From a virus, in the UHGV virus genome UHGV-0103780: a stretch of DNA of 49,301 nt. The stretch is one strand, 5' to 3'. This document shows positions 1,498 to 34,286 of this stretch, piece by piece; the first letter of the stretch is position 1, and the number at the start of each line of letters is the position of its first letter. Position numbers and translations under genes: made by a program. The notes beneath the pieces are model-generated. The model was not told the origin of the DNA and searched no databases. It saw only the letters and a program-made list of their open reading frames with translations.

Positions 1498-1575
1498 GAT
1501 TTTCCCTAATCAATGTTGTGAAGCCTCATTGTAAGATAAGTAACTTGTCACCCCGCCCTGCGGACGGGGTGATTG

Positions 1576-2415
1576 TCACGCATCGCTATCCAACAGCAAA
1601 TCATCTGCGCGGGTGCGATCAAACGTAGGCGTTGCTTTCACAATAGTGCCGCCCGGCGTTGCAGTGATCGGGGCGTTAATCGACGTAACTTCAGTAAGCG
1701 AAGTTGTATCCGAAGTTTCAAACCAGCAGAATGCTTTTTCGGTATCAGAAATCTCATTCAAAGTGATCATGTCGGCCTGTTCATTTACAACAACCGACAA
1801 ATAGAGCGTAAGCCCATCAAACACTATATGCAGTGGCAGTAGAGGCTTTACGAACTGATTAAACTTTCTGAGAATTTCTTCTGTAATTGCGGACTGATCT
1901 ATCGTTCCAGTAATACCCATTGTCCGGGCCAAGTCGTTTATGGGAATACTGATCATTCCTCTGGAAGTCAGAAACATCTCGCCGAATGTGCCGCCGGTGG
2001 TTTCCAGTGTGCTTTCTGGAATCAGGACCGTGCCATAGGGATGACGTTCAAAGTCCACCGGAGCATATATGGGATCCCATAAAACCGATATACCGTTAAA
2101 TTCGCGATAAATTGTCTGGTTTATAGGGCGTTCAGTACCCTTAAAATGGATCTCATCAAACCGCTGTTGTAACAACATCGGAACGGAAGATGAATTCGAC
2201 GTTCTGATAGTAAAAAACTGGCCAAGTTCATTTGTCCTAGTCTCCAGATCCTCCTTGCTCATGGAGAAAATAGACTTCCGGTTGGTAATTCGCTCCAACC
2301 ATGGGTCAACAAAGGTGTCCATCATTGACTGAACCAAATCAGCCAATGATTTATAAAGTAATGACTTTTGCTTAGCTGATGTAAGCCGGTTATTAAACCA
2401 GGAACGCTGCATCAC
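1576..2415 (-). CDS. baseplate protein (Mu gp48 / P2 gpI-like position), 279 aa
   Basis: ATGA overlap with the upstream 477-aa gene (2412-2415); part of a W-J-I-like baseplate gene order. Confidence 0.6.
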   Translation of the reverse strand: MMQRSWFNNRLTSAKQKSLLYKSLADLVQSMMDTFVDPWLERITNRKSIFSMSKEDLETRTNELGQFFTIRTSNSSSVPMLLQQRFDEIHFKGTERPINQTIYREFNGISVLWDPIYAPVDFERHPYGTVLIPESTLETTGGTFGEMFLTSRGMISIPINDLARTMGITGTIDQSAITEEILRKFNQFVKPLLPLHIVFDGLTLYLSVVVNEQADMITLNEISDTEKAFCWFETSDTTSLTEVTSINAPITATPGGTIVKATPTFDRTRADDLLLDSDA

Positions 2416-3845
2416 TCCTCCTCATACGAAATATTAAAGGTGGAGTTTTCTGTATCCAGATAAACGAAATCGTAAAAGCCGTTGGACTCATTCCACTCGA
2501 CAAATTCCAGATAAAAGTCGCGGAAATAACCCAGCGTTTCGATAAATGCCCAAACGTCTTTTTTCTTGATTAGGATGTACTTGCCGACACGGTTCGGATC
2601 AAAGAAAGTTGAGTCACGCCCAAATTTTGTTTCCAGTGCCGACTTCAGCTCATCAGTCACGTTCTCAATGGTCAGGCTTGCCGATATCCGCCCAGTGATG
2701 GTGATCTTAAAGGGTAGTTTTCTGACCTCTTTATACGAGAATTTCTTGTTCAACTCATTCGGCACCTTCTTAAAGGCAGCCAGGATCATTTCTTCAAGCT
2801 CTGACTGGCTTTTGTTTGGATGCCATCCTGAAATAAATATCTTATTGATATTCCGAACATTATAAGCACCATCTAATTTCTCTTGCTGGCCTTCGCCCCA
2901 TGCCTTTACCCAGGACAGTCCCGGGATGTTACGCACCAGAAAATACGTATAGTCCCCGCCCCATACGACCTGATCATCATAGGCAAGGTAATATTGTGCA
3001 CGATTACGTGTGATCTCCGTTGTTTCGGCATCGGTACCTGCGGTTATGGGTGTCGTTGTCTTAACTGAAATCAAATTAGCTAAATTAGCCGCAGAATCGA
3101 CAGGAGTCAGGTTTTGGCCAGCAACCAGGGTTATATCTCCGTTGGTGCACCATACCTTAAGTGTAATGGTCGAGCCTTCTGGCGGTATTTGCCCAATTAG
3201 CCCATCACCGAATCGAACCCCCAACTGCTCGGATGGCTTATAAAACTCAACGTAGACCTGGCTTTTACTACCGGCTAACCGGAACATAGTGCTGGAAGAC
3301 CACTGCGTGGTCTTACCATCGGTCGTCACGAATACTTCCAGCTTATAGCAGACAGCAGTGAGAGCCTTTGATAACACGACTTCCAGAAATTCTTTGGCTG
3401 CCGTAACGGTATATGTCACCTCCTGGATTTCCAACTGTGCCACTTCTACCGTACCGGTGCCGTCAACCAACCTGCATACATCCATAGTCATGTAAGGGTA
3501 CTGGTCGTCAGATATTAAAGGCATGTTTTTGGGGATTACCGCTGGGGCATCTTCACTTGTGGCAGTGATCTCAATCATCCCCGATGACGGTGTTGGCTTG
3601 GTACCAACGTAACTATTCGTTTCTGCTGCTGCCAGGATAGAGGAACGCCGCGTCGCGGTCGATATAAAGCCTTCAGCCAGCGCCGCATCGGCATACTGAA
3701 AGCACCTGTAGACAATCTGGGTAATAAACAATGTCAGCATCGAGACAAATTGAGAGCCGACAAACTTCGACCAGAATGAATCTTTCTCGACAAGCTCTTC
3801 AAACTCTGCACGAATACTGTCTTTAGTCGGTGTTGTTTTACTCAT
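2412..3845 (-). CDS. baseplate J-like protein, 477 aa
   Basis: Size and position between a W-like and an I-like gene; translationally coupled at both ends (overlaps 3842-3845 and 2412-2415). Confidence 0.6.
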   Translation of the reverse strand: MSKTTPTKDSIRAEFEELVEKDSFWSKFVGSQFVSMLTLFITQIVYRCFQYADAALAEGFISTATRRSSILAAAETNSYVGTKPTPSSGMIEITATSEDAPAVIPKNMPLISDDQYPYMTMDVCRLVDGTGTVEVAQLEIQEVTYTVTAAKEFLEVVLSKALTAVCYKLEVFVTTDGKTTQWSSSTMFRLAGSKSQVYVEFYKPSEQLGVRFGDGLIGQIPPEGSTITLKVWCTNGDITLVAGQNLTPVDSAANLANLISVKTTTPITAGTDAETTEITRNRAQYYLAYDDQVVWGGDYTYFLVRNIPGLSWVKAWGEGQQEKLDGAYNVRNINKIFISGWHPNKSQSELEEMILAAFKKVPNELNKKFSYKEVRKLPFKITITGRISASLTIENVTDELKSALETKFGRDSTFFDPNRVGKYILIKKKDVWAFIETLGYFRDFYLEFVEWNESNGFYDFVYLDTENSTFNISYEEE

Positions 3846-4201
3846 AGCACCACGTCCTGTGTGATAGTTATATCCCTGATACGAATGGATATTTTCAACT
3901 TATCAAAAGCATCTCCCTCGGCTACTGACAAGCCAGAAATCGGTATGTCGGGTAAATCTACCGTCAGTTTTTGCAAAAGCATTGCCTCAACCGCAATTTG
4001 AACATGCGACAAGTTGGTCGGTTCGTGTTTAAACTGCGGTAAAACATTGCCCCATGACGGATCTCCGTATACCTCACCCTGATAAGTGTTTAGCCACTCA
4101 TATAAACGAGCGCCCCAGGCCTCCTCCTGGGACTCATACGTTTTTACGCCGGATAACTCCAGCGTCAGTAAAGGATCAATTTCATTATTGTTGGCCATCA
4201 A
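3842..4201 (-). CDS. baseplate wedge protein (GPW/gp25-like), 119 aa
   Basis: Small acidic protein directly downstream of the Sit-like gene with a 4-bp overlap (4198-4201); standard position of a W-like subunit. Confidence 0.55.
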   Translation of the reverse strand: MMANNNEIDPLLTLELSGVKTYESQEEAWGARLYEWLNTYQGEVYGDPSWGNVLPQFKHEPTNLSHVQIAVEAMLLQKLTVDLPDIPISGLSVAEGDAFDKLKISIRIRDITITQDVVL

Positions 4202-7200
4202 TCAACTCTCGCGTAGTCATTCATCAACGGATCATCAATTGACAGTGGCACCGTGCGCATAACGCCCGGTTGAGGCGTGCTGACCTTTACGACAGTTCCC
4301 TGGCCTTTCGCCGAGTCTTTAGTGTGCTCTTCAATCCTGGCAAGCAATGAGGTCATCTGCGCAAACAGCCGCTTCGTTTCACCATCAAGTGAAACGGTAT
4401 TATCAGCCAACTGCATTGTCGGCTTGGCACCGGAGCCGCCAAGGTCACTAATAACCTGTCCGTCTATCTGCATACGACCGGTTGGTTGCTGCAAATCGTT
4501 GGCGGCAGTCGTCACCTGGGACGTGGAGGCTGGTTCAGGCGCATTATTTTTCCGCATCCCCGGCGAGTTGCGGAGTTTATCGAATAGTCCATCAATCCCC
4601 ATTTGTGCGCCGAGTTGGTCAAAGTAACTTGAGTTGCTGGCCACCGGACGCGCCTCTTCAACTGGCATCGGAGTATCAACATACACATTGCCAGCTGCTG
4701 TTGCGGTCCCCTTCCCTCGTGCACGTTCTTCGAGCGTTCCCTGAACGACTTCCCGACGCATACCCCGGCCATTCATGAATTTGTTGACCAGATCGTTAAC
4801 GCCAACAGCATTGCCGATTTTGTCTACCAGACCGCCTTTCTCAAACGGGCTATCACCAGGGGTAAACGCCAGACCAGTAGACTGATCGATAACGGCGTTA
4901 TCAGGCAGTGGTCCCCTCACTCCATATTGCGCCCCACCCTGTGCTCCTGCCCCAGGTGTATAGATTTCACCACCTAAATAGCGAGCACGATGAGTATTGA
5001 CCTTGATCGCGTACTCACGGTTTTCCTTCGATAAGTCACCGGTGCCTTTTTTCCACTTATTAATAGTGCCAAACCCAGCGTTATATGCAGTGATGGCCTC
5101 GTTTAAGTCTCCATTGGCTTGCTTCAGATACTTGCTCATGAGAAGAGCCGCAGCTTCTGCCGATTTCACAGGATCAAACGATTCACCTTCAGCTAAGCCA
5201 GTCTCTTCACGAGCAATGCCCGTGAACTGAAACATCCCCAGAGCACCAGTTTGGGATTTTGCGTATGGATTACCACCAGATTCAGTTGCAGCAATCGCGT
5301 AAAGAGTGCCTTCAGGAAGACCATATTTATTCTCTAGTTCAGCAAAATACGGAGCTAACTTATCGAGATTTGCCTTACCTTCAGCGCCAAGGCTTCCGAC
5401 TTTTACATCTAAGTTGCCATTATTGTAGGTATCAGCAGCTTTCTGAATGTCATTCCCAGTGCCGGTGGTATTACGCGACGATGATGACGAGCTATTTTGT
5501 CCAATAGCTGAATCAATTTTCCGCACCGCGCTATTGCCCGTTTCTACGGCATTTGCATTGATAATCTGATTGGCAGTTTCTTTAACTGTTTTATTGCTAT
5601 CTTTCGCCGTGTCCAGTGCCGCATTTATCACGCGGGTAGCAATATTAGTCTGTTTAGCATCGGATTCAGTTTTAGAATCAGATGTCTCCTGGTGGCTATT
5701 AACCGGAGCTTTTAACTCTGGAGTGATTTCTTTTGCATTAGCCTCGCCGATCGGATTGGGTATTTTTGATACAATCATTGCCGCAGGGGTATTTTTAACG
5801 GCATCAACCGCTGCATCTAATGCTTTACCGGGTAAATTTTTAACCCCATCCCAAATATTACCAGCCGCCTCTTTAATGTGTTTCCCTGGGTTCTTAATGA
5901 AGTCAATTGCACTATCAATTGCATCACTGAAAACCTGTTTCAGGTTATCGACAGTAAAGAAGTCTTTTATGGCATCCAGCTTTTCAAGCAACTTATTAGA
6001 TGTATCGCTAAACCATGCTGAAACAGCATCACCAATCTTTGCTGTGTAATCATCGAACCTGGTAGAAATGGTGTCGCCAAGGTTAGAAATATATGTTTCT
6101 AAGTTGGTAACCCCGCTATCAATGGCCTGGGCAATACTTTCCGTCGAAAATGATTGCAACATATTGCCGATATCCTCAAATCCAAGTGATTTGAGAACAT
6201 CACCAATAGCACTGCTTATACCAGATACCAGTCCCCCCAAATCAAGAACATTGGCTAACGTATAAGCGGCTTTTTGCTGGAATGATGGATCTTGTCCTGA
6301 TTTAAGCCCAAACGCTCGACGTTGCGCTTCTGTATCATTCCAACCGGTTACCGCATCATAAATACCTCCAGCCACTGTGCCGACTAGGGGAATTGCGCGT
6401 AACGCCCCTTTACCAACTGCCTTTAATCCAAGTTTACCTGCTGCCCGGGCAGCCAAATCTCCGCCTTCATGAGCGAGAGTCTTCTTGCCACCACCGCGTA
6501 GCATTCCTACAAGTTTCTTTGCCCCCAGAGCGCCAAAAGCGAGTGCTCCAGCTTTTTTCAACATGCCACGCCCCATTAACAACGACGCGACGCCACCGGC
6601 CCCCTTCCCTAACAGGCTAAATAGTTTGGACAGCAAGCCGCCCTTCTTTTTACCGGTGTTTTTGGCTATCTGATCAAGGGCGCGGAGAATCTTGTCATTG
6701 CCCTCTTTAATTTCGCTGGTCTGCTCCTGAAGTTCCTGAACCGTCCGTTTTTGGGTGTTAACCTGAACGACATCGGCACTATTTTGCGATTTACGCCTAA
6801 AAAAACCTTTTCTACGGCTGTTATCGTCATTGCCACGAATCACATCGGCAATAGACTTTCTGGCACCATTAAGCGATCCACCAACTTCTTTTGATATCCC
6901 GCCAAGCTCCTTCCCTGCTGCCCACAATGGACCAGCAACGGCATAACCTAACGCATCGACGGCACGAGTCTCTGAAGGGTTACCTATGCCTTCAGCTACT
7001 TTTGACAGTTTTTTTAATAAACCTGCTTCAGCATTTAGACGCTCATCATCCTCTTTGAGCCTGGCCTTTTCAGCACGTTCAGCACGGGCATCTTCCGCTG
7101 CGGCCTTACTCCCTGACTTTCCAATAAAACGACCACGCGCATCGCGTTGGTTTTGGCTTTTTTGCGCACCGCCTTTTTGACCGAACATTTCGCGAGCGTG

Positions 7201-31483: not shown

Positions 31484-31657
31484 ATTAGTGTAATATCGCC
31501 TCAATGAATCGTGATTTATAGAGCGATTTAGCTGTTAGCCGCGACAGGCGCGGCGGTAAGCATGGCTGGGCCTAGTCCTCCCAGACAAACCACCGAGTTG
31601 CCAGGTTGACCATGCGCCTAAGTGGCAACTCCGAAGTGCGTTACGAGCTTCCAGTTT

Positions 31658-31685
31658 GCCCATCTTCGGGTGGGCGTTTTTTTTC
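31658..31685 (+). terminator. rho-independent terminator
   Basis: GCCCATC-ttcg-GGTGGGC followed by GTTTTTTTT. Confidence 0.7.
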
Positions 31686-32149
31686 AGGGTTTTCGTCATG
31701 GTTAGCGACTTTGCGGCGGTTTAGAAACTGACCATTAAAGTAAATGCAAACGATGATCTGATGATGGTAGCGGCCTAAGAAGCCAGATGCCACGGGGTAT
31801 GAGTCGTCCCCCGTCAAAAAATCGACCGCAGAGTGTCCCCGTCTGTGTATTAGGGAACGGGGAGGCACAACAGGTAAGGGCGCTGGTGTGATTAACCAGA
31901 TGAACGAGAAGGGGCCATCTGTTGGTCAGCGTCCTTTCCTGTTGCGTTTTCTTTTCAGCGTAACAGCGGTGCTTAACAGCACTTTGGGTACAGTTCCACG
32001 AATTTACGGGTATATCCCGTCATGCTGAAAGCGCTAATCACGCTGGAAGCCAGGGTTGTGCATCCCCTGTTACCGAATTGCAGCCAGGGCGCGGTGCGCC
32101 GAAAAGCATACGGAGGTGGAAGCCCTCGCCGGAGACGTACCCGGCAAGT

Positions 32150-32225
32150 GATGGTGTAGCTCAGCGGTTAGAGCGGTTGACTGTTAATCAACGGGTCGAT
32201 GGTTCAAATCCATCCACCATCGCCA
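32150..32225 (+). tRNA. tRNA-Asn (anticodon GTT)
   Basis: Manual cloverleaf: acceptor GATGGTG/CACCATC, anticodon loop CTGTTAA, T-loop TTCAAAT, encoded CCA; 76 nt. Confidence 0.85.
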
Positions 32226-32227
32226 AT

Positions 32228-32303
32228 GCCGGTTTAGCTCAGTTGGTAGAGCGCCTGCCTTGTAAGCAGGATGTCAGCGGTTCGAGTCCGTTAATCGGCA
32301 CCA
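32228..32303 (+). tRNA. tRNA-Thr (anticodon TGT)
   Basis: Manual cloverleaf: acceptor GCCGGTT/AATCGGC, anticodon loop CTTGTAA, T-loop TTCGAGT, encoded CCA; starts 2 nt after tRNA-Asn. Confidence 0.85.
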
Positions 32304-32304
32304 G

Positions 32305-33105
32305 CACAACAGGTAAGGGTATTTTGCGACGTCGGAGATCGCCGAGCTTGGCAGAGGGTTCGAATCCCTACGAAGTACCCTTACCGTTGTGATGAATGCG
32401 CAGGCTGATGCGCGAAAGACATTGCAGCTATTGCGGAAAAGAGCTGTTCGGCGGGGCAATTAAACGCCCGTGAGAGTCTGAAATAACCGCAAGCCGGAGA
32501 TCAGCACCGGTCATCACAACACAACAGGTAAGGGCATTCTCCCTTATGGGGCTTGGCTTAAATGCATCGAGTGCTCTTACCGTTGTGATGAAGTGCAGCT
32601 CTTTGAAGCAACCAGAAGATAAGCATCTGGCTTCACAACATAAACCGCAGGAACGACCAATAAACGGTAGTCCGTATGGAGAACACCCCGTTGAGGAAGA
32701 GGCCTGGCCGGAACCGTAACCGGCACTACAACGTTGAGAACACTGGCGTAACGGGGTCATATCCCAATCTACGAATAAATGTTGCGTTGCAGCGTGACAA
32801 CCAGTGTTCTCAACATTGTGGTGAATGCACAGGCTGATGTGCCGCAACTACAGTAGTGCGCGCTTTGCGGGGCTTGCTACAACCCTGTGTCGGAGTTCAG
32901 CACCGACCATCACAGTTTGATTCTCTGGCATGAGCATAACGCTGAAATAAGTCCAGTCTGGTGCGGCCCGATCACCCGCCGTTAGCTCCACGAAACGGAG
33001 CACGTAACAGGTAAGAGCATTCTCCTGTAACGGGTTCATATCCCAATCTACAGGTCCACCAGGAATGCTCTTTCCGTTGCGGTGAATGCGGCTAAGCGCA
33101 CGCGG
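32305..33105 (+). repeat. array of four related structured repeat units (long inverted arms around a tRNA T-arm-like hairpin)
   Basis: Copies at about 32305-32412, 32511-32600, 32733-32850, 33005-33105; examples CACAACAGGTAAGGGTA...GGGTTCGAATCCC...TACCCTTACCGTTGTG and a perfect 14-bp inverted repeat GTTGAGAACACTGG/CCAGTGTTCTCAAC. No convincing ORF. Confidence 0.6.
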
Positions 33106-33230
33106 GGAAATGGTTATATCTGTCCATTATTTCTCCTTATTTCCCCGTCCATGGTGGATAACCAGCCAAAGGACACCGGGAAGCACCCGGCACCGCAACC
33201 TTATTTCCCAACCAGTAATGAGGTTAATAA

Positions 33231-33930: not shown

Positions 33931-34006
33931 GGCCCTTTAGCTCAGTGGTTAGAGCTGGCGACTCATAATCGCACGGTCACCGGTTCAAGTCCGGTAGGGG
34001 CCACCA
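33931..34006 (+). tRNA. tRNA with CAT anticodon, tRNA-Ile2 (lysidine) type
   Basis: Manual cloverleaf: acceptor GGCCCTT/AGGGGCC, anticodon loop CTCATAA, T-loop TTCAAGT, encoded CCA; close to E. coli tRNA-Ile2 as recalled. Confidence 0.8.
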
Positions 34007-34286
34007 TATTTGGTTGTAACACGGCGTCTGGCACATGCGTCGTTAGCGGTCTGGTGACGTTAAAAGGGGGGAACCTTGCCCCTAGCTCAGGCAACGAACC
34101 AGGTAGCCGGAATGTGCAAGCCACCGTTTGTTGTTTCTCGGGTAAAGGGATTCACCATCCTGGCGATTCGGTGTGACAGCCGGGAAGAGTCCGGCGCATT
34201 AATCCTGATTTTCTGGTGATGACTCATATCGTTAGGAGTGATTTGAGTATGCCGATTATATCTGACATTCAGCACGCCTGGGTGGA

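What the first reader, a model, noticed from the sequence alone, without database searches (positions are those of the whole stretch)
32305..33105. About 800 bp of non-coding DNA beside the phage tRNAs with four copies of a long-stemmed, tRNA-T-arm-like structured repeat
Directly after tRNA-Thr there is no credible ORF, only four related units. Each has inverted arms of 14-20 bp (CACAACAGGTAAGGGTA / TACCCTTACCGTTGTG; ATCACAACACAACAGGTAAGGGCA / TGCTCTTACCGTTGTGATGA; perfect GTTGAGAACACTGG / CCAGTGTTCTCAAC) enclosing a hairpin like a tRNA T-arm (GGGTTCGAATCCC, GGGGTCATATCCC, GGGTTCATATCCC), then a GTGATGAATGCGCAGGCTGATGCGC-type hairpin. Copies begin with tRNA-3'-end-like GCACCA/GCACCG. They do not fold as canonical cloverleaves. 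Possibilities are a family of structured small RNAs (tRNA mimics, processing substrates, retron-like msr/msd without a nearby RT) or decayed tRNA duplications.
Basis: seen in the sequence. Interest (0 to 1): 0.7.

Follow-up and report, generated by a model that had tools for sequence, protein, structure and literature searches.

The report
Phage array of tRNA-shaped RNA modules
The 800-base tract after the phage P1-type tRNA genes is a tandem array of folded non-coding RNA modules from two families that are widespread in enterobacterial phages, one of them undescribed, and it is not decayed tRNAs or protein-coding genes.

Summary
The window is a P1-like phage. The tract lies in the untranslated middle of the C1-repressed ban operon, between tRNA-Thr and tciA.

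It contains four long-stem units, U1-U4, and a fifth, U0, lies upstream at 31865-31946. These alternate with a second module type, S1-S4, which has a short closing stem, two small hairpins and a variable insert. S4 is a sub-threshold match to the prophage sRNA family STnc100/PasD.

Both module types recur in hundreds of phage and prophage sequences with different interiors. In 44 distinct arm pairs, 14 of 18 U-stem pairs show compensatory changes. G·U pairs favour the + strand 72 to 9. The + strand also folds better (z -8.9 against -4.7). In other phages the same modules form promoter-to-terminator operons that contain only tRNAs and these RNAs.

U heads are hypervariable. Ten of 52 carry a canonical T-loop hairpin, and U1's head is a D-arm/T-arm "elbow" with no anticodon arm. 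No unit scores as a tRNA. I saw no reverse transcriptase in the neighbourhood examined. The P1 minus-strand ORFs plp and upl look spurious.

Most likely these are co-transcribed RNAs cut out by tRNA/rRNA-processing nucleases; that step is inferred, not shown. The function is unknown. A tmRNA-like tag-template module lies just upstream.

The parts
31593..31684 (+). DicF-like region ending in an intrinsic terminator, first element after the C1-controlled ban promoter
   Evidence: P1 reference annotation transferred by homology. Terminator-like site 31654-31676 plus a T run.
31687..31864 (+). tmRNA-like module. The 5' part resembles the ssrA 5' end; the tag ORF at 31746-31778 encodes ANDDLMMVAA*.
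   Evidence: Sequence. Six tag variants in related phages. Weak Rfam tmRNA hits only. ARAGORN calls no tmRNA.
31865..31946 (+). U0: fifth long-stem unit, upstream of the tRNAs, with no T-arm-like hairpin
   Evidence: family D4; z -5.5
32150..32225 (+). tRNA-Asn (GTT)
32228..32303 (+). tRNA-Thr (TGT). Its CCA end abuts U1 directly.
32304..32391 (+). U1: stem of about 26 bp with a bulged A. The head has a D-arm-like hairpin at 32326-32342 and a canonical T arm at 32355-32369, with no anticodon arm.
32389..32517 (+). S1: closing stem GUGAUGA/UCAUCAC, 5' hairpin GCGC-AGGCUGAU-GCGC, a 79-nt insert, and 3' hairpin GCCGG-AGAUCAGCA-CCGG
   Evidence: The same module at 95-99% identity is in 846 of 5426 E. 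coli genomes.
32520..32587 (+). U2: long-stem unit with a short head and no T-arm-like hairpin
32585..32636 (+). S2: minimal, degenerate S module in which only the 3' hairpin CCAGA-AGAUAAGCA-UCUGG is kept
   Evidence: (family D2)
32706..32724 (+). Small hairpin GGCCGG-AACCGUAA-CCGGC that precedes U3. Relatives of it precede tRNA-Asn here and other U units elsewhere.
32724..32823 (+). U3: long stem with diverged, compensated arms (GTTGAGAACACTGG / CCAGTGTTCTCAAC). The head has two hairpins, including GGGGTCATATCCC.
   Evidence: I1; z -6.7
32818..32913 (+). S3: S module whose 3' hairpin GUCGG-AGUUCAGCA-CCGAC is compensatory relative to S1
32985..33001 (+). Small hairpin GCUCC-ACGAAAC-GGAGC, conserved just upstream of U units in several phages
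33003..33081 (+). U4: long-stem unit whose head holds the GGGTTCATATCCC hairpin
33079..33197 (+). S4: STnc100-like module just upstream of tciA
   Evidence: Rfam RF02076 at 39.2 bits (gathering 47), E 2.8e-6, with the same architecture
32274..33039 (-). Minus-strand ORFs corresponding to P1 plp and upl (61, 139 and 63 aa here), judged not to be genes

Best explanation
The tract is the untranslated, + strand-transcribed middle of the C1-repressed ban operon. It is built from two kinds of tRNA-shaped RNA modules that alternate.

- **U modules (U0-U4).** A closing duplex of 15-27 bp with a bulged A and conserved U·U and U·G irregularities is capped by a freely replaceable head. In U1 the head is a D-arm plus T-arm elbow with no anticodon arm.
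- **S modules (S1-S4).** These are relatives of STnc100/PasD. A 6-10 bp closing stem is followed by a D-arm-like hairpin, a hypervariable insert, and a T-arm-like hairpin that abuts the 3' strand of the closing stem. The two hairpin loops are invariant and mutually complementary.

The modules are co-transcribed with tRNA-Asn and tRNA-Thr. Most likely the host's stable-RNA maturation nucleases cut them out of the precursor. RNase III would cut the long U duplexes, and RNase P or RNase E would cut at the tRNA-like junctions. This would free the tRNA 3' ends and release compact stable RNAs, and the variable heads and inserts of those RNAs would carry the specific activity.

Shown: the repeats, the folds, selection on the stems, the folding strand, family membership, and co-operonic linkage with tRNAs. 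Inferred: the nucleases, the existence of discrete products, and what the variable parts do.
For: **Identity and context.** The window is 99% identical to P1-type phages. The tract lies between trnT and tciA, downstream of the C1-controlled ban promoters. There is no promoter-like site on either strand and no + strand terminator-like site inside it. ban-operon genes are expressed in P1vir RNA-seq.

**Fold.**
- All five U units fold 6-10 kcal/mol better on the + strand than on the - strand.
- For the whole 897 nt, z is -8.9 on the + strand and -4.7 on the - strand.

**Selection on the U stem** (44 distinct arm pairs from phages):
- 94.8% of cells are paired, against 40-53% in slid registers.
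- 14 of 18 pairs show changes on both sides, in 71 cells; 0 of 500 shuffles reach this.
- G·U occurs in 72 cells, against 9 A·C cells that would be G·U on the other strand.

**Family.**
- The S 5' motif hit the 120-stretch return limit of IMG/VR, so there are more. About 75 of 99 unique contexts have a U unit directly upstream.
- 71 of 93 unique S copies end in GCCGG-AGAUCAGCA-CCGGC-CACCAC, with inserts that bring total length to 56-226 nt.
- Both S hairpin stems covary while their loops stay fixed.
- An S1-type copy is in 846 of 5426 E. coli genomes, always unannotated.

**Link with tRNAs.**
- 25 of 125 S copies lie within 600 nt of a tRNA, all on the same strand.
- L074 and L019 show the order promoter, tm-like module, U, S, tRNA(s), terminator, with no annotated gene in between.
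- tRNA-Thr here and tRNA-Ser in D6 abut a U unit with no spacer.

**tRNA-like shape.**
- 10 of 52 heads hold a T-loop hairpin, against 0.07 expected.
- L197 and L161 heads fold as complete cloverleaf-like shapes on a 14-bp acceptor-like stem.

**Stem length.** The median is 19 bp and the range 15-27 bp, about two helical turns, which suits RNase III.

**Modularity.** P1 relatives differ by whole-module gains and losses at the shared arms.
Against: - No transcript ends, cleavage sites or stable products are available for this tract, so the RNase III and RNase P steps rest on stem length, tRNA-like shape and analogy.
- An intrinsic terminator (31654-31684) lies between the ban promoter and the array, so expression needs read-through.
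- U units were selected partly by their ability to pair (duplex <= -20 kcal/mol). This inflates the percentage paired, though not the compensatory changes.
- G·T is also tolerated in single-stranded DNA, so the strand asymmetry alone does not prove RNA.
- The T-arm-like hairpin of U4 is deleted in one relative, and 36 of 52 heads have no recognisable motif, so the heads may be dispensable.
- I found no antisense targets for the variable parts within the window.
Confidence: 0.5

Rival explanations
1. The tract is only a cis-acting leader. Its dense structure exists to carry RNA polymerase and the transcript across about 1.5 kb of untranslated RNA. It would deny Rho a loading site, block exonucleases, or tune tciA/ban expression, and would produce no functional small RNAs.
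For: - The tract sits inside an mRNA operon upstream of tciA and ban.
- In lambdoid phages the modules lie in the early-left operon leader, just after the repressor gene.
- The heads are hypervariable and partly dispensable.
- The U 3' arm often reads UGCUCUUUCC, which resembles boxA (the resemblance is judged from memory of boxA).
Against: - In L074 and L019 the same modules form operons that end in a terminator after the tRNAs, with no downstream gene to serve.
- Some S modules have their own promoter.
- The S scaffold sequence is nearly invariant across distant phages, which suggests a trans-acting partner.
- The GCUCUU motif is absent from several compensated arm variants.
Confidence: 0.2
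2. The modules are decoys or mimics of translation-apparatus RNAs. The long stems and S scaffolds display tRNA-elbow, tmRNA or rRNA look-alikes that titrate host factors or blunt RNA-targeting defence systems.
For: - U1's head has D-arm and T-arm hairpins that are invariant across P1, an Enterobacter podophage and other phages, while the surrounding stem covaries.
- T-loop hairpins are strongly enriched in the heads.
- A tmRNA-like tag template lies in the same operons.
- The S inserts of L055, L062 and L162 contain a look-alike of a small-subunit rRNA helix (Rfam 33.4 bits, E 8e-8).
Against: - Most heads and inserts match nothing known: ten further loci gave no stable-RNA match, and none of the window's own inserts do.
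- The heads lack anticodon arms, so anticodon nucleases would not be decoyed.
- No binding partner has been identified.
Confidence: 0.1
3. The units are decayed tRNA duplications: pseudogenes left after loss of tRNA cassettes, with no present function.
For: - U1 has a T-arm sequence, and the tract adjoins real tRNAs.
- Relatives carry extra tRNAs (Tyr, Ser) in the same tract.
- Heads are gained and lost freely.
Against: - No unit is reported by ARAGORN or by the Rfam tRNA model even at E<=10.
- The arms show compensatory evolution across many phages.
- The heads of different copies are not homologous to each other or to the neighbouring tRNAs.
- The tRNA-Ser of D6 sits between modules and does not replace one.
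Confidence: 0.07
4. The features act at the DNA level. The imperfect palindromes would fold in single-stranded DNA as recombination or cassette boundaries (like integron attC sites) or as priming signals, or they would be MITE-like selfish repeats.
For: - The arms have an AAC...GTT core, a bulged base and a variable centre.
- Whole modules are exchanged at the arms.
- G·T pairs are tolerated in DNA hairpins.
Against: - Orientation always matches the operon and the neighbouring tRNAs (25 of 25).
- Copies are clustered in transcribed non-coding tracts rather than dispersed in both orientations.
- Dedicated promoter-to-terminator units exist.
- No integrase or transposase is associated in the annotated neighbourhoods examined.
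Confidence: 0.05
5. The tract encodes the minus-strand proteins Plp (putative lipoprotein) and Upl, as annotated in the P1 reference genome.
For: - ORFs of 139 aa and 63 aa are open here, and a common core stays open in P1, P7, D6 and Ro157c2YLVW.
- PHROG families exist for Upl.
Against: - The N- and C-termini of the plp ORF differ in every relative because whole RNA modules come and go.
- In P1 the ORF overlaps tRNA-Thr in antisense.
- There is no Pfam domain.
- The relatives are 95-99% identical, so an open frame means little.
- The DNA shows compensatory changes and a G·U bias for + strand folding.
- The PHROG hits are only the same annotated ORFs.
Confidence: 0.04

Closest known systems
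STnc100 (Rfam RF02076) / PasD prophage sRNAs
   Same: S4 (33079-33197) aligns to the STnc100 model with the same layout: closing stem, GGUGAAU linker, 5' hairpin, variable middle, and a 3' hairpin abutting the closing stem. A copy in Klebsiella phage K751 passes the gathering score. The family is known as prophage-borne, Hfq-associated sRNAs of unclear function.
   Different: S1-S3 and the abundant GUGGUGAAUGCGCAGGCUGAUGCGC...GCCGGAGAUCAGCACCGGCCACCAC type are not detected by the Rfam model. The U hairpins are not part of it. STnc100/PasD have been described in the late operon of lambdoid prophages, not in tandem arrays beside tRNAs.
Small stable RNAs of the phage T4 tRNA cluster (species 1 and 2) and RNase III/RNase P processing of that precursor (from my own knowledge, not checked here)
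   Same: These are structured, partly tRNA-like RNAs of unknown function, co-transcribed with phage tRNAs and matured by host tRNA-processing nucleases.
   Different: I could not test sequence or structure similarity. The T4 RNAs are single genes, not an alternating two-family array with hypervariable interiors.
C4 / P4-CI / IsrK antisense RNAs (Rfam clan CL00128). P1's own C4 RNA is cut out of its operon transcript by RNase P (from my own knowledge).
   Same: A P1-encoded, tRNA-acceptor/T-arm-like RNA is excised from a polycistronic transcript, with its specific function carried in loops.
   Different: No Rfam C4 or IsrK match falls in the tract. I found no complementary targets in the window.
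tRNA and the tmRNA tRNA-like domain
   Same: U1's head has a 4-bp D-like stem with a GG-containing loop and a canonical T arm stacked on the closing stem. Heads in L197 and L161 are full cloverleaf-like folds.
   Different: There is no anticodon arm and no free CCA end, and the acceptor-like stem is extended to 14-26 bp. The units are not scored by tRNA or tmRNA models.
Bacterial Y RNAs (YrlA, RF02553)
   Same: Both have a long stem formed by the 5' and 3' ends plus a tRNA-like head.
   Different: The YrlA model matches only the true tRNAs here (25.6 bits, gathering 69). The topology differs, because in U units the T arm stacks on the long stem. No Rsr gene is in the annotated neighbourhood.
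RNase III processing stems (rRNA operons, T7 early mRNA, lambda N leader and sib; from my own knowledge)
   Same: Duplexes of about two helical turns with small irregularities flank or separate functional RNAs in a polycistronic transcript.
   Different: Cleavage has not been shown here, and the sequences are not related to any site I can recall.

Membership tests
tRNA gene or pseudogene (RF00005) | Cloverleaf scored by ARAGORN or by the Rfam tRNA covariance model (gathering 29 bits) | tested here: not met
   Only the three true tRNAs are reported. Nothing in 32304-33105 is reported even at E<=10. The heads of L197, L161, L071, L070 and L076 are also not called.
tRNA gene or pseudogene (RF00005) | T arm: 4-5 bp stem with a TTCRANN loop | tested here: met
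   Met by U1 only (AGGG-TTCGAAT-CCCT at 32355-32369). U3 and U4 have GTCATAT and TTCATAT loops, and U2 and U0 have none.
STnc100 (RF02076) | Score at or above the Rfam gathering threshold of 47 bits | tested here: not met
   S4 scores 39.2 bits, E 2.8e-6, over model positions 31-147 of 206. S1-S3 give no hit. K751's copy scores 48.8 bits.
STnc100 (RF02076) | Architecture: closing stem, GGUGAAU linker, 5' hairpin, variable middle, 3' hairpin adjacent to the closing stem | tested here: met
   The alignment of S4 to the model's structure line shows this layout. S1 and S3 have the same layout by inspection and by regex over 71 unique copies.
Retron msr/msd | Adjacent reverse transcriptase gene | tested here: not met
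   The annotated neighbours are dmt, tRNAs, tciABC and ban. In the other annotated phage loci examined no RT gene lies next to the modules. The rest of the window was not screened for RT domains.
tmRNA (RF00023 and permuted forms) | tRNA-like domain with acceptor stem and CCA, plus a tag reading frame, called by ARAGORN or Rfam | tested here: not met
   This row applies to the upstream module at 31687-31864. A tag ORF is present in six SsrA-like variants. ARAGORN calls no tmRNA. Rfam scores are 26 bits or less against a gathering score of 47. No acceptor 3' strand partner lies within 2.5 kb.
Y RNA-like YrlA (RF02553) | Covariance-model match at or above 69 bits, with an Rsr gene in the neighbourhood | tested here: not met
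   The only hit is 25.6 bits and spans the two real tRNAs. No Rsr gene is among the annotated neighbours.
RNase III substrate | Roughly 20 bp or more of near-continuous duplex RNA | tested here: met
   The outer helix is 15-27 bp, median 19, in 56 units, and can be extended by flanking pairs. The window's units have about 20-26 bp.
RNase III substrate | Staggered double-strand cleavage in vivo or in vitro | not testable with these tools
   No RNA-end data are available.
Integron attC-like site | Associated tyrosine integrase and cassette ORFs, with R''/R' core sites RYYYAAC / GTTRRRY | tested here: not met
   No integrase is in the annotated neighbourhood. CACAAC and GTTGTG do not fit the core consensus. 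The modules flank RNAs, not ORFs.

The most novel reading that the evidence does not exclude
U, S and the upstream tmRNA-like module could together form a widespread, unrecognised phage system of tRNA-shaped scaffolds. These scaffolds would display look-alikes of translation-machinery RNAs: a tRNA/tmRNA elbow, an SsrA-type tag template, and in some phages a 16S rRNA helix. They would be made from tRNA operons and used to hijack ribosome rescue or to blunt host factors and defence systems that target stable RNAs. On this reading, P1 would carry a tmRNA-derived gene that has been missed since the genome was annotated.
Probability: 0.12. Interest if true: 0.85.

Novelty: new variant of a known kind. 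Interest (0 to 1): 0.62.

Why it matters
- **Annotation.** P1 is one of the best-studied phages, yet this tract is annotated as two hypothetical minus-strand genes. The evidence says it is instead an array of selected RNA structures. One of its families (U) is absent from Rfam 15, and four characteristic U and S sequence strings matched no paper in the literature library.
- **Spread.** The modules occur in P1-like phage-plasmids, lambdoid and Stx prophages, P22-like podophages and Klebsiella Ackermannviridae. The S1-type module is in about one in six complete E. coli genomes.
- **A unifying picture.** The prophage sRNA family STnc100/PasD, the unexplained structured RNAs next to phage tRNAs, and a tmRNA-like element can all be read the same way: tRNA-shaped scaffolds with replaceable cargo.
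- **Testability.** The nucleases, the products and the role of the variable parts can all be tested directly with standard P1 genetics.

Tried and rejected
- **Rfam scans** of the window tract and 17 related loci at permissive thresholds gave nothing for U units except microRNA-like hairpin noise.
- **Literature search** for four characteristic sequence strings returned no papers. Searches on the P1 ban operon with tRNA, and on tmRNA in phages, returned nothing that bears on the tract. One P1vir RNA-seq preprint shows only that ban-operon genes are expressed.
- **A complete tmRNA.** I looked for an acceptor 3' strand partner for the tm-like 5' end in five loci and found no consistent candidate. 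ARAGORN's tmRNA call in L019 is an artefact that borrows the end of tRNA-Met.
- **Antisense targets** of the variable heads and inserts within the window: the longest complementarity is 13 nt, about what chance gives.
- **boxA / Nus antitermination reading of the 3' arm.** The GCUCUU motif is not kept in the compensated arm variants, so I did not adopt this reading.
- **General 'stable-RNA fragment cargo' idea.** Only the SSU-helix case and the T-loop heads support it; ten further loci gave no match.
- **Kissing-loop covariation in S.** Both loops are invariant, so no test is possible.
- **Protein-level tests** of plp and upl found no Pfam domain, and the PHROG hits are only self-matches.
Full report
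**Where this is.** The window is a P1-type phage: megablast gives 99% identity to P1, RCS47 and JL22 over the region. In the P1 reference the tract lies in the ban operon. The order is: the C1-controlled promoters P1ban/P2ban, a 'dicF-like region', trnA (Asn), trnT (Thr), then about 730 bp annotated as the minus-strand genes plp and upl, then tciA, tciB, tciC, trnI and ban. ARAGORN and Rfam find tRNA-Asn (32150-32225), tRNA-Thr (32228-32303) and a CAT-anticodon tRNA (33931-34006), and nothing tRNA-like in between, even at E<=10.

**The observation.** The units are U1 32304-32391, U2 32520-32587, U3 32724-32823 and U4 33003-33081. A fifth copy, U0, lies at 31865-31946, upstream of the tRNAs.
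- The 5' arm motif occurs 4 times in 49 kb against 0.07 expected.
- The 3' arm junction occurs 4 times against 1.17 expected.
- All copies are on the + strand within 1.3 kb.
- Each unit folds much better than shuffles (z -3.6 to -6.7).

Some details need correcting. U2 and U0 have no T-arm-like hairpin. Only U1 has a canonical T loop. The 'GCACCA' start is the real end of tRNA-Thr. The 'GTGATGAATGC...' hairpin belongs to a second module type.

**Two module types.** Reading the spacers shows a second repeated element, S. Its parts are GUG(G/A)UGAAU, a hairpin GCGC-AGGCUGAU-GCGC, a variable insert, a hairpin GCCGG-AGAUCAGCA-CCGGC, and CA(C/U)CAC, which pairs with the first six bases.
- S1 (32389-32517) and S3 (32818-32913) fit this layout, with compensatory differences: GUGAUGA/UCAUCAC against GUGGUG/CAUCAC, and GCCGG/CCGG against GUCGG/CCGAC.
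- S2 (32585-32636) is a degenerate minimal copy.
- S4 (33079-33197) is the sub-threshold Rfam STnc100 match (39.2 bits, E 2.8e-6) with the same architecture.

STnc100 and its relative PasD are prophage-borne, Hfq-associated sRNAs of unclear function.

The tract therefore reads: tRNA-Thr, U1, S1, U2, S2, small hairpin, U3, S3, small hairpin, U4, S4, tciA.

**The families outside P1.** blastn finds pieces of the tract in 117 phage records: P1-like phages, lambdoid and Stx phages, Klebsiella, Salmonella and Cronobacter phages, and Ackermannviridae. Nearly all matches fall on unannotated DNA.
About 75 of 99 unique upstream contexts have a long-stem U unit ending exactly at the S start.
- 71 of 93 unique S copies end in the conserved 3' hairpin and closing strand, with total lengths of 56-226 nt.
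- A second scan anchored on the 3' motif shows the 5' hairpin stem covarying (GCGC, ACGU, GUGCG/CGCAC, GACGG/CCGUC, GUCGG/CCGAC, UCGC/GCGA) around an invariant GGCUGA loop.
- The two invariant loops are complementary over six bases (GCUGAU / AUCAGC). This would give S a tRNA-like layout in which a loop-loop contact replaces the D/T elbow. That is an inference; no covariation test is possible.
- An S1-type copy is present in 846 of 5426 complete E. coli genomes, on chromosomes and P1-like plasmids, always unannotated.
- The exact U-S junction occurs in species-representative genomes of Pantoea, Serratia, Kosakonia, Pluralibacter and Pseudocitrobacter.

**Selection on the U stem, and the strand.** I aligned 44 distinct arm pairs: 22 nt from each arm joined by an artificial GAAA linker, with the heads removed.
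- 94.8% of cells form standard pairs, against 40-53% when the partner is slid by 1-3 columns.
- 14 of 18 pairs have changes on both sides, in 71 cells.
- No shuffle out of 500 reaches any of the measures.
- The irregularities recur in many copies: a bulged A after the sixth pair (26 of 44), a U·U (15 of 44) or U-A (14 of 44) at one position, and a U·G in 28 of 44.
- G·U cells number 72. A·C cells, which would be G·U on the opposite strand, number 9.
- All five window units fold 6-10 kcal/mol better as + strand RNA. For the whole 897 nt, z is -8.9 on the + strand and -4.7 on the - strand.

One caveat applies. Units were picked partly by duplex energy, which inflates the percentage paired but not the compensatory changes.

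**Heads are replaceable, and some are tRNA-like.** Among 52 distinct heads, at least 36 share no motif.
- Ten hold a 4-bp stem around a TTCRANN loop, against 0.07 expected from shuffles.
- Five carry the motif GGGNYCATAWCCCAAYC, as in U3 and U4.
- U1's head is GCGA-CGUCGGAGA-UCGC, then 12 nt, then AGGG-UUCGAAU-CCCU, stacked on the long stem. It recurs with invariant hairpins and covarying surrounding stem in an Enterobacter podophage (L006) and in L104 and L047. It is a tRNA or tmRNA-type elbow without an anticodon arm.
- In the high-GC loci L197 and L161 the head is a complete cloverleaf-like fold on a 14-bp acceptor-like stem, yet it is not called as a tRNA.

**Linkage with tRNAs and transcription.** Of 125 S copies in 120 viral loci, 25 lie within 600 nt of a tRNA, and all 25 are on the same strand. 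In L074 and L019 a consensus-like promoter (TTGACA, 17 nt, TAGATT) is followed by the tm-like module, U, S, a hairpin, one or two tRNAs and a terminator, with no annotated gene in between. These are pure RNA operons. Some S modules have their own promoter. tRNA-Thr here and tRNA-Ser in D6 abut a U unit with no spacer. Inside the tract there is no promoter-like site on either strand and no + strand terminator-like site. RNA-seq of P1vir shows that ban-operon genes including trnA are expressed.

**Modular evolution.** P1 relatives differ by whole modules.
- The P1 reference and D6 lack window 32380-32575. This is a crossover between the shared 3' arms that removes S1 and most of U2.
- P7 and Ro157c2YLVW lack U1 and S1.
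- Ro157c2YLVW has a 158-bp insertion before U3, and its U4 has lost the 13-nt hairpin.
- D6 and P7 carry another S insert, a tRNA-Ser and a different U unit.

**The annotated ORFs.** A minus-strand frame is open here (139 aa) and in the relatives. Its termini differ in each relative because modules come and go. In P1 it overlaps tRNA-Thr in antisense. It has no Pfam domain, and the PHROG hits for Upl are only the same annotated ORFs. Given the + strand compensatory pattern, I regard plp and upl as annotation artefacts.

**Mechanism.**
- Shown: strand-specific, selected RNA structures of two families, co-operonic with tRNAs.
- Inferred: the modules are cut from the precursor by host maturation nucleases.

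The U duplex has a median of 19 bp and a range of 15-27 bp, which suits RNase III. A stable hairpin placed directly after a tRNA CCA end would otherwise block 3' trimming. S modules and U1-type heads have the stacked acceptor/T-arm geometry that RNase P reads. P1's own C4 RNA and the T4 tRNA cluster are precedents for this kind of processing; I am recalling those from memory. I put about 0.9 on 'selected + strand RNA modules' and about 0.4 on the specific processing scheme. What the variable parts do is unknown.

**Rivals.** The rivals are a purely cis-acting leader, decoys of translation RNAs, decayed tRNAs, DNA-level palindromes, the plp/upl genes, and a retron. Each is weighed in the structured fields.

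**Seen nearby.**
- A tmRNA-like module (31687-31864) has SsrA-type tag ORFs in six variants but no acceptor partner.
- A DicF-like sRNA with a terminator lies at the operon start.
- A leader upstream of ban (about 34010-34200) is homologous to the leaders that follow the repressor gene in lambdoid phages.
- A small-subunit rRNA helix look-alike sits inside S inserts of other phages.

Noticed in passing
window 31687-31864 (+); also L007 2350-2500, L074 4325-4480, L019 3040-3200, L047 9640-9810: A tmRNA-like half gene. Its 5' part resembles the ssrA 5' end. A resume-codon ORF encodes SsrA-type tags in six variants: ANDDLMMVAA (window and P1), ANDDLMMAAA (P7), ANDDVVLMAA, ANDDLMLMAA, ANDNTFLAVA (Klebsiella phage K751) and ANEEMYLAVA. 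The stop codon sits in a small hairpin loop, as in ssrA helix 5 (the helix-5 and ssrA comparisons rest on my recall of ssrA), and a covarying hairpin follows. I found no T arm, acceptor 3' strand or CCA partner. ARAGORN calls nothing, and Rfam tmRNA models score 26 bits or less.
   Followed up: partly
window 31593-31684 (+): A DicF-like sRNA region ends in a strong intrinsic terminator (8-bp stem plus T8) between the ban promoter and everything downstream. The tRNAs, the array, tciABC and ban therefore need read-through or antitermination.
   Followed up: no
window 34010-34200 (+): The stretch between trnI and ban is homologous to the leader that follows the repressor gene in lambdoid phages (L008 2190-2375, L006 2330-2495). 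It includes GGTAGCCGGAATGTGCAAG and a terminal hairpin with a GAAGAG(A/T) loop whose stem covaries (GCCGG/CCGGC, CCTGG/CCAGG, CCTCG/CGAGG). It may be a nut-like or other leader RNA.
   Followed up: no
L055 5882-5928; also L062 and L162 (S-module inserts): The variable insert of some S modules contains a look-alike of a conserved small-subunit rRNA helix (CAUCAGCUAGAUGGUGAGGUAAUGGCUCACCAUGGCGACGACGG). It scores 33.4 bits against an Rfam SSU model, E 8e-8. Ten other loci with long inserts gave no stable-RNA match.
   Followed up: partly
L007 (Klebsiella phage K751, Ackermannviridae) 1500-4800: About 3.3 kb has no annotated gene. It holds the tm-like module, a U unit, an S module, a full-length STnc100 match (48.8 bits, above gathering), several tRNA-like pieces (for example 2138-2195) and a tRNA-Met. 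This is a large non-coding RNA tract in a virulent phage.
   Followed up: partly
window 32274-33039 (-); P1 reference plp and upl: The P1 reference genes plp ('putative lipoprotein') and upl are read antisense through the RNA modules, and plp overlaps tRNA-Thr. They are probably annotation artefacts that have been propagated to relatives and to PHROGs.
   Followed up: partly
L002 (phage Ro157c2YLVW) 2395-2566: This P1 relative has a 158-bp insertion between S2 and U3 that carries a small annotated + strand ORF (42 aa). It also has an extra tRNA-Tyr between tRNA-Asn and tRNA-Thr. The tract is a hotspot for insertions.
   Followed up: no
L019 3200-3574: ARAGORN reports a tmRNA here with the tag AKAVRLRKCSFRCGECAG. 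This is a false call that spans U, S and the end of tRNA-Met. The real tag-like ORF lies upstream at about 3095-3127.
   Followed up: yes
many loci downstream of S, e.g. L091, L055 6003-6052, L008 2640-2690: In lambdoid-type phages the S module is typically followed by a conserved hairpin (AUCACG...CGUGAU) and then a DicF-like sRNA with its terminator. DicF-like RNAs may therefore be made from precursors that begin with U and S modules.
   Followed up: no
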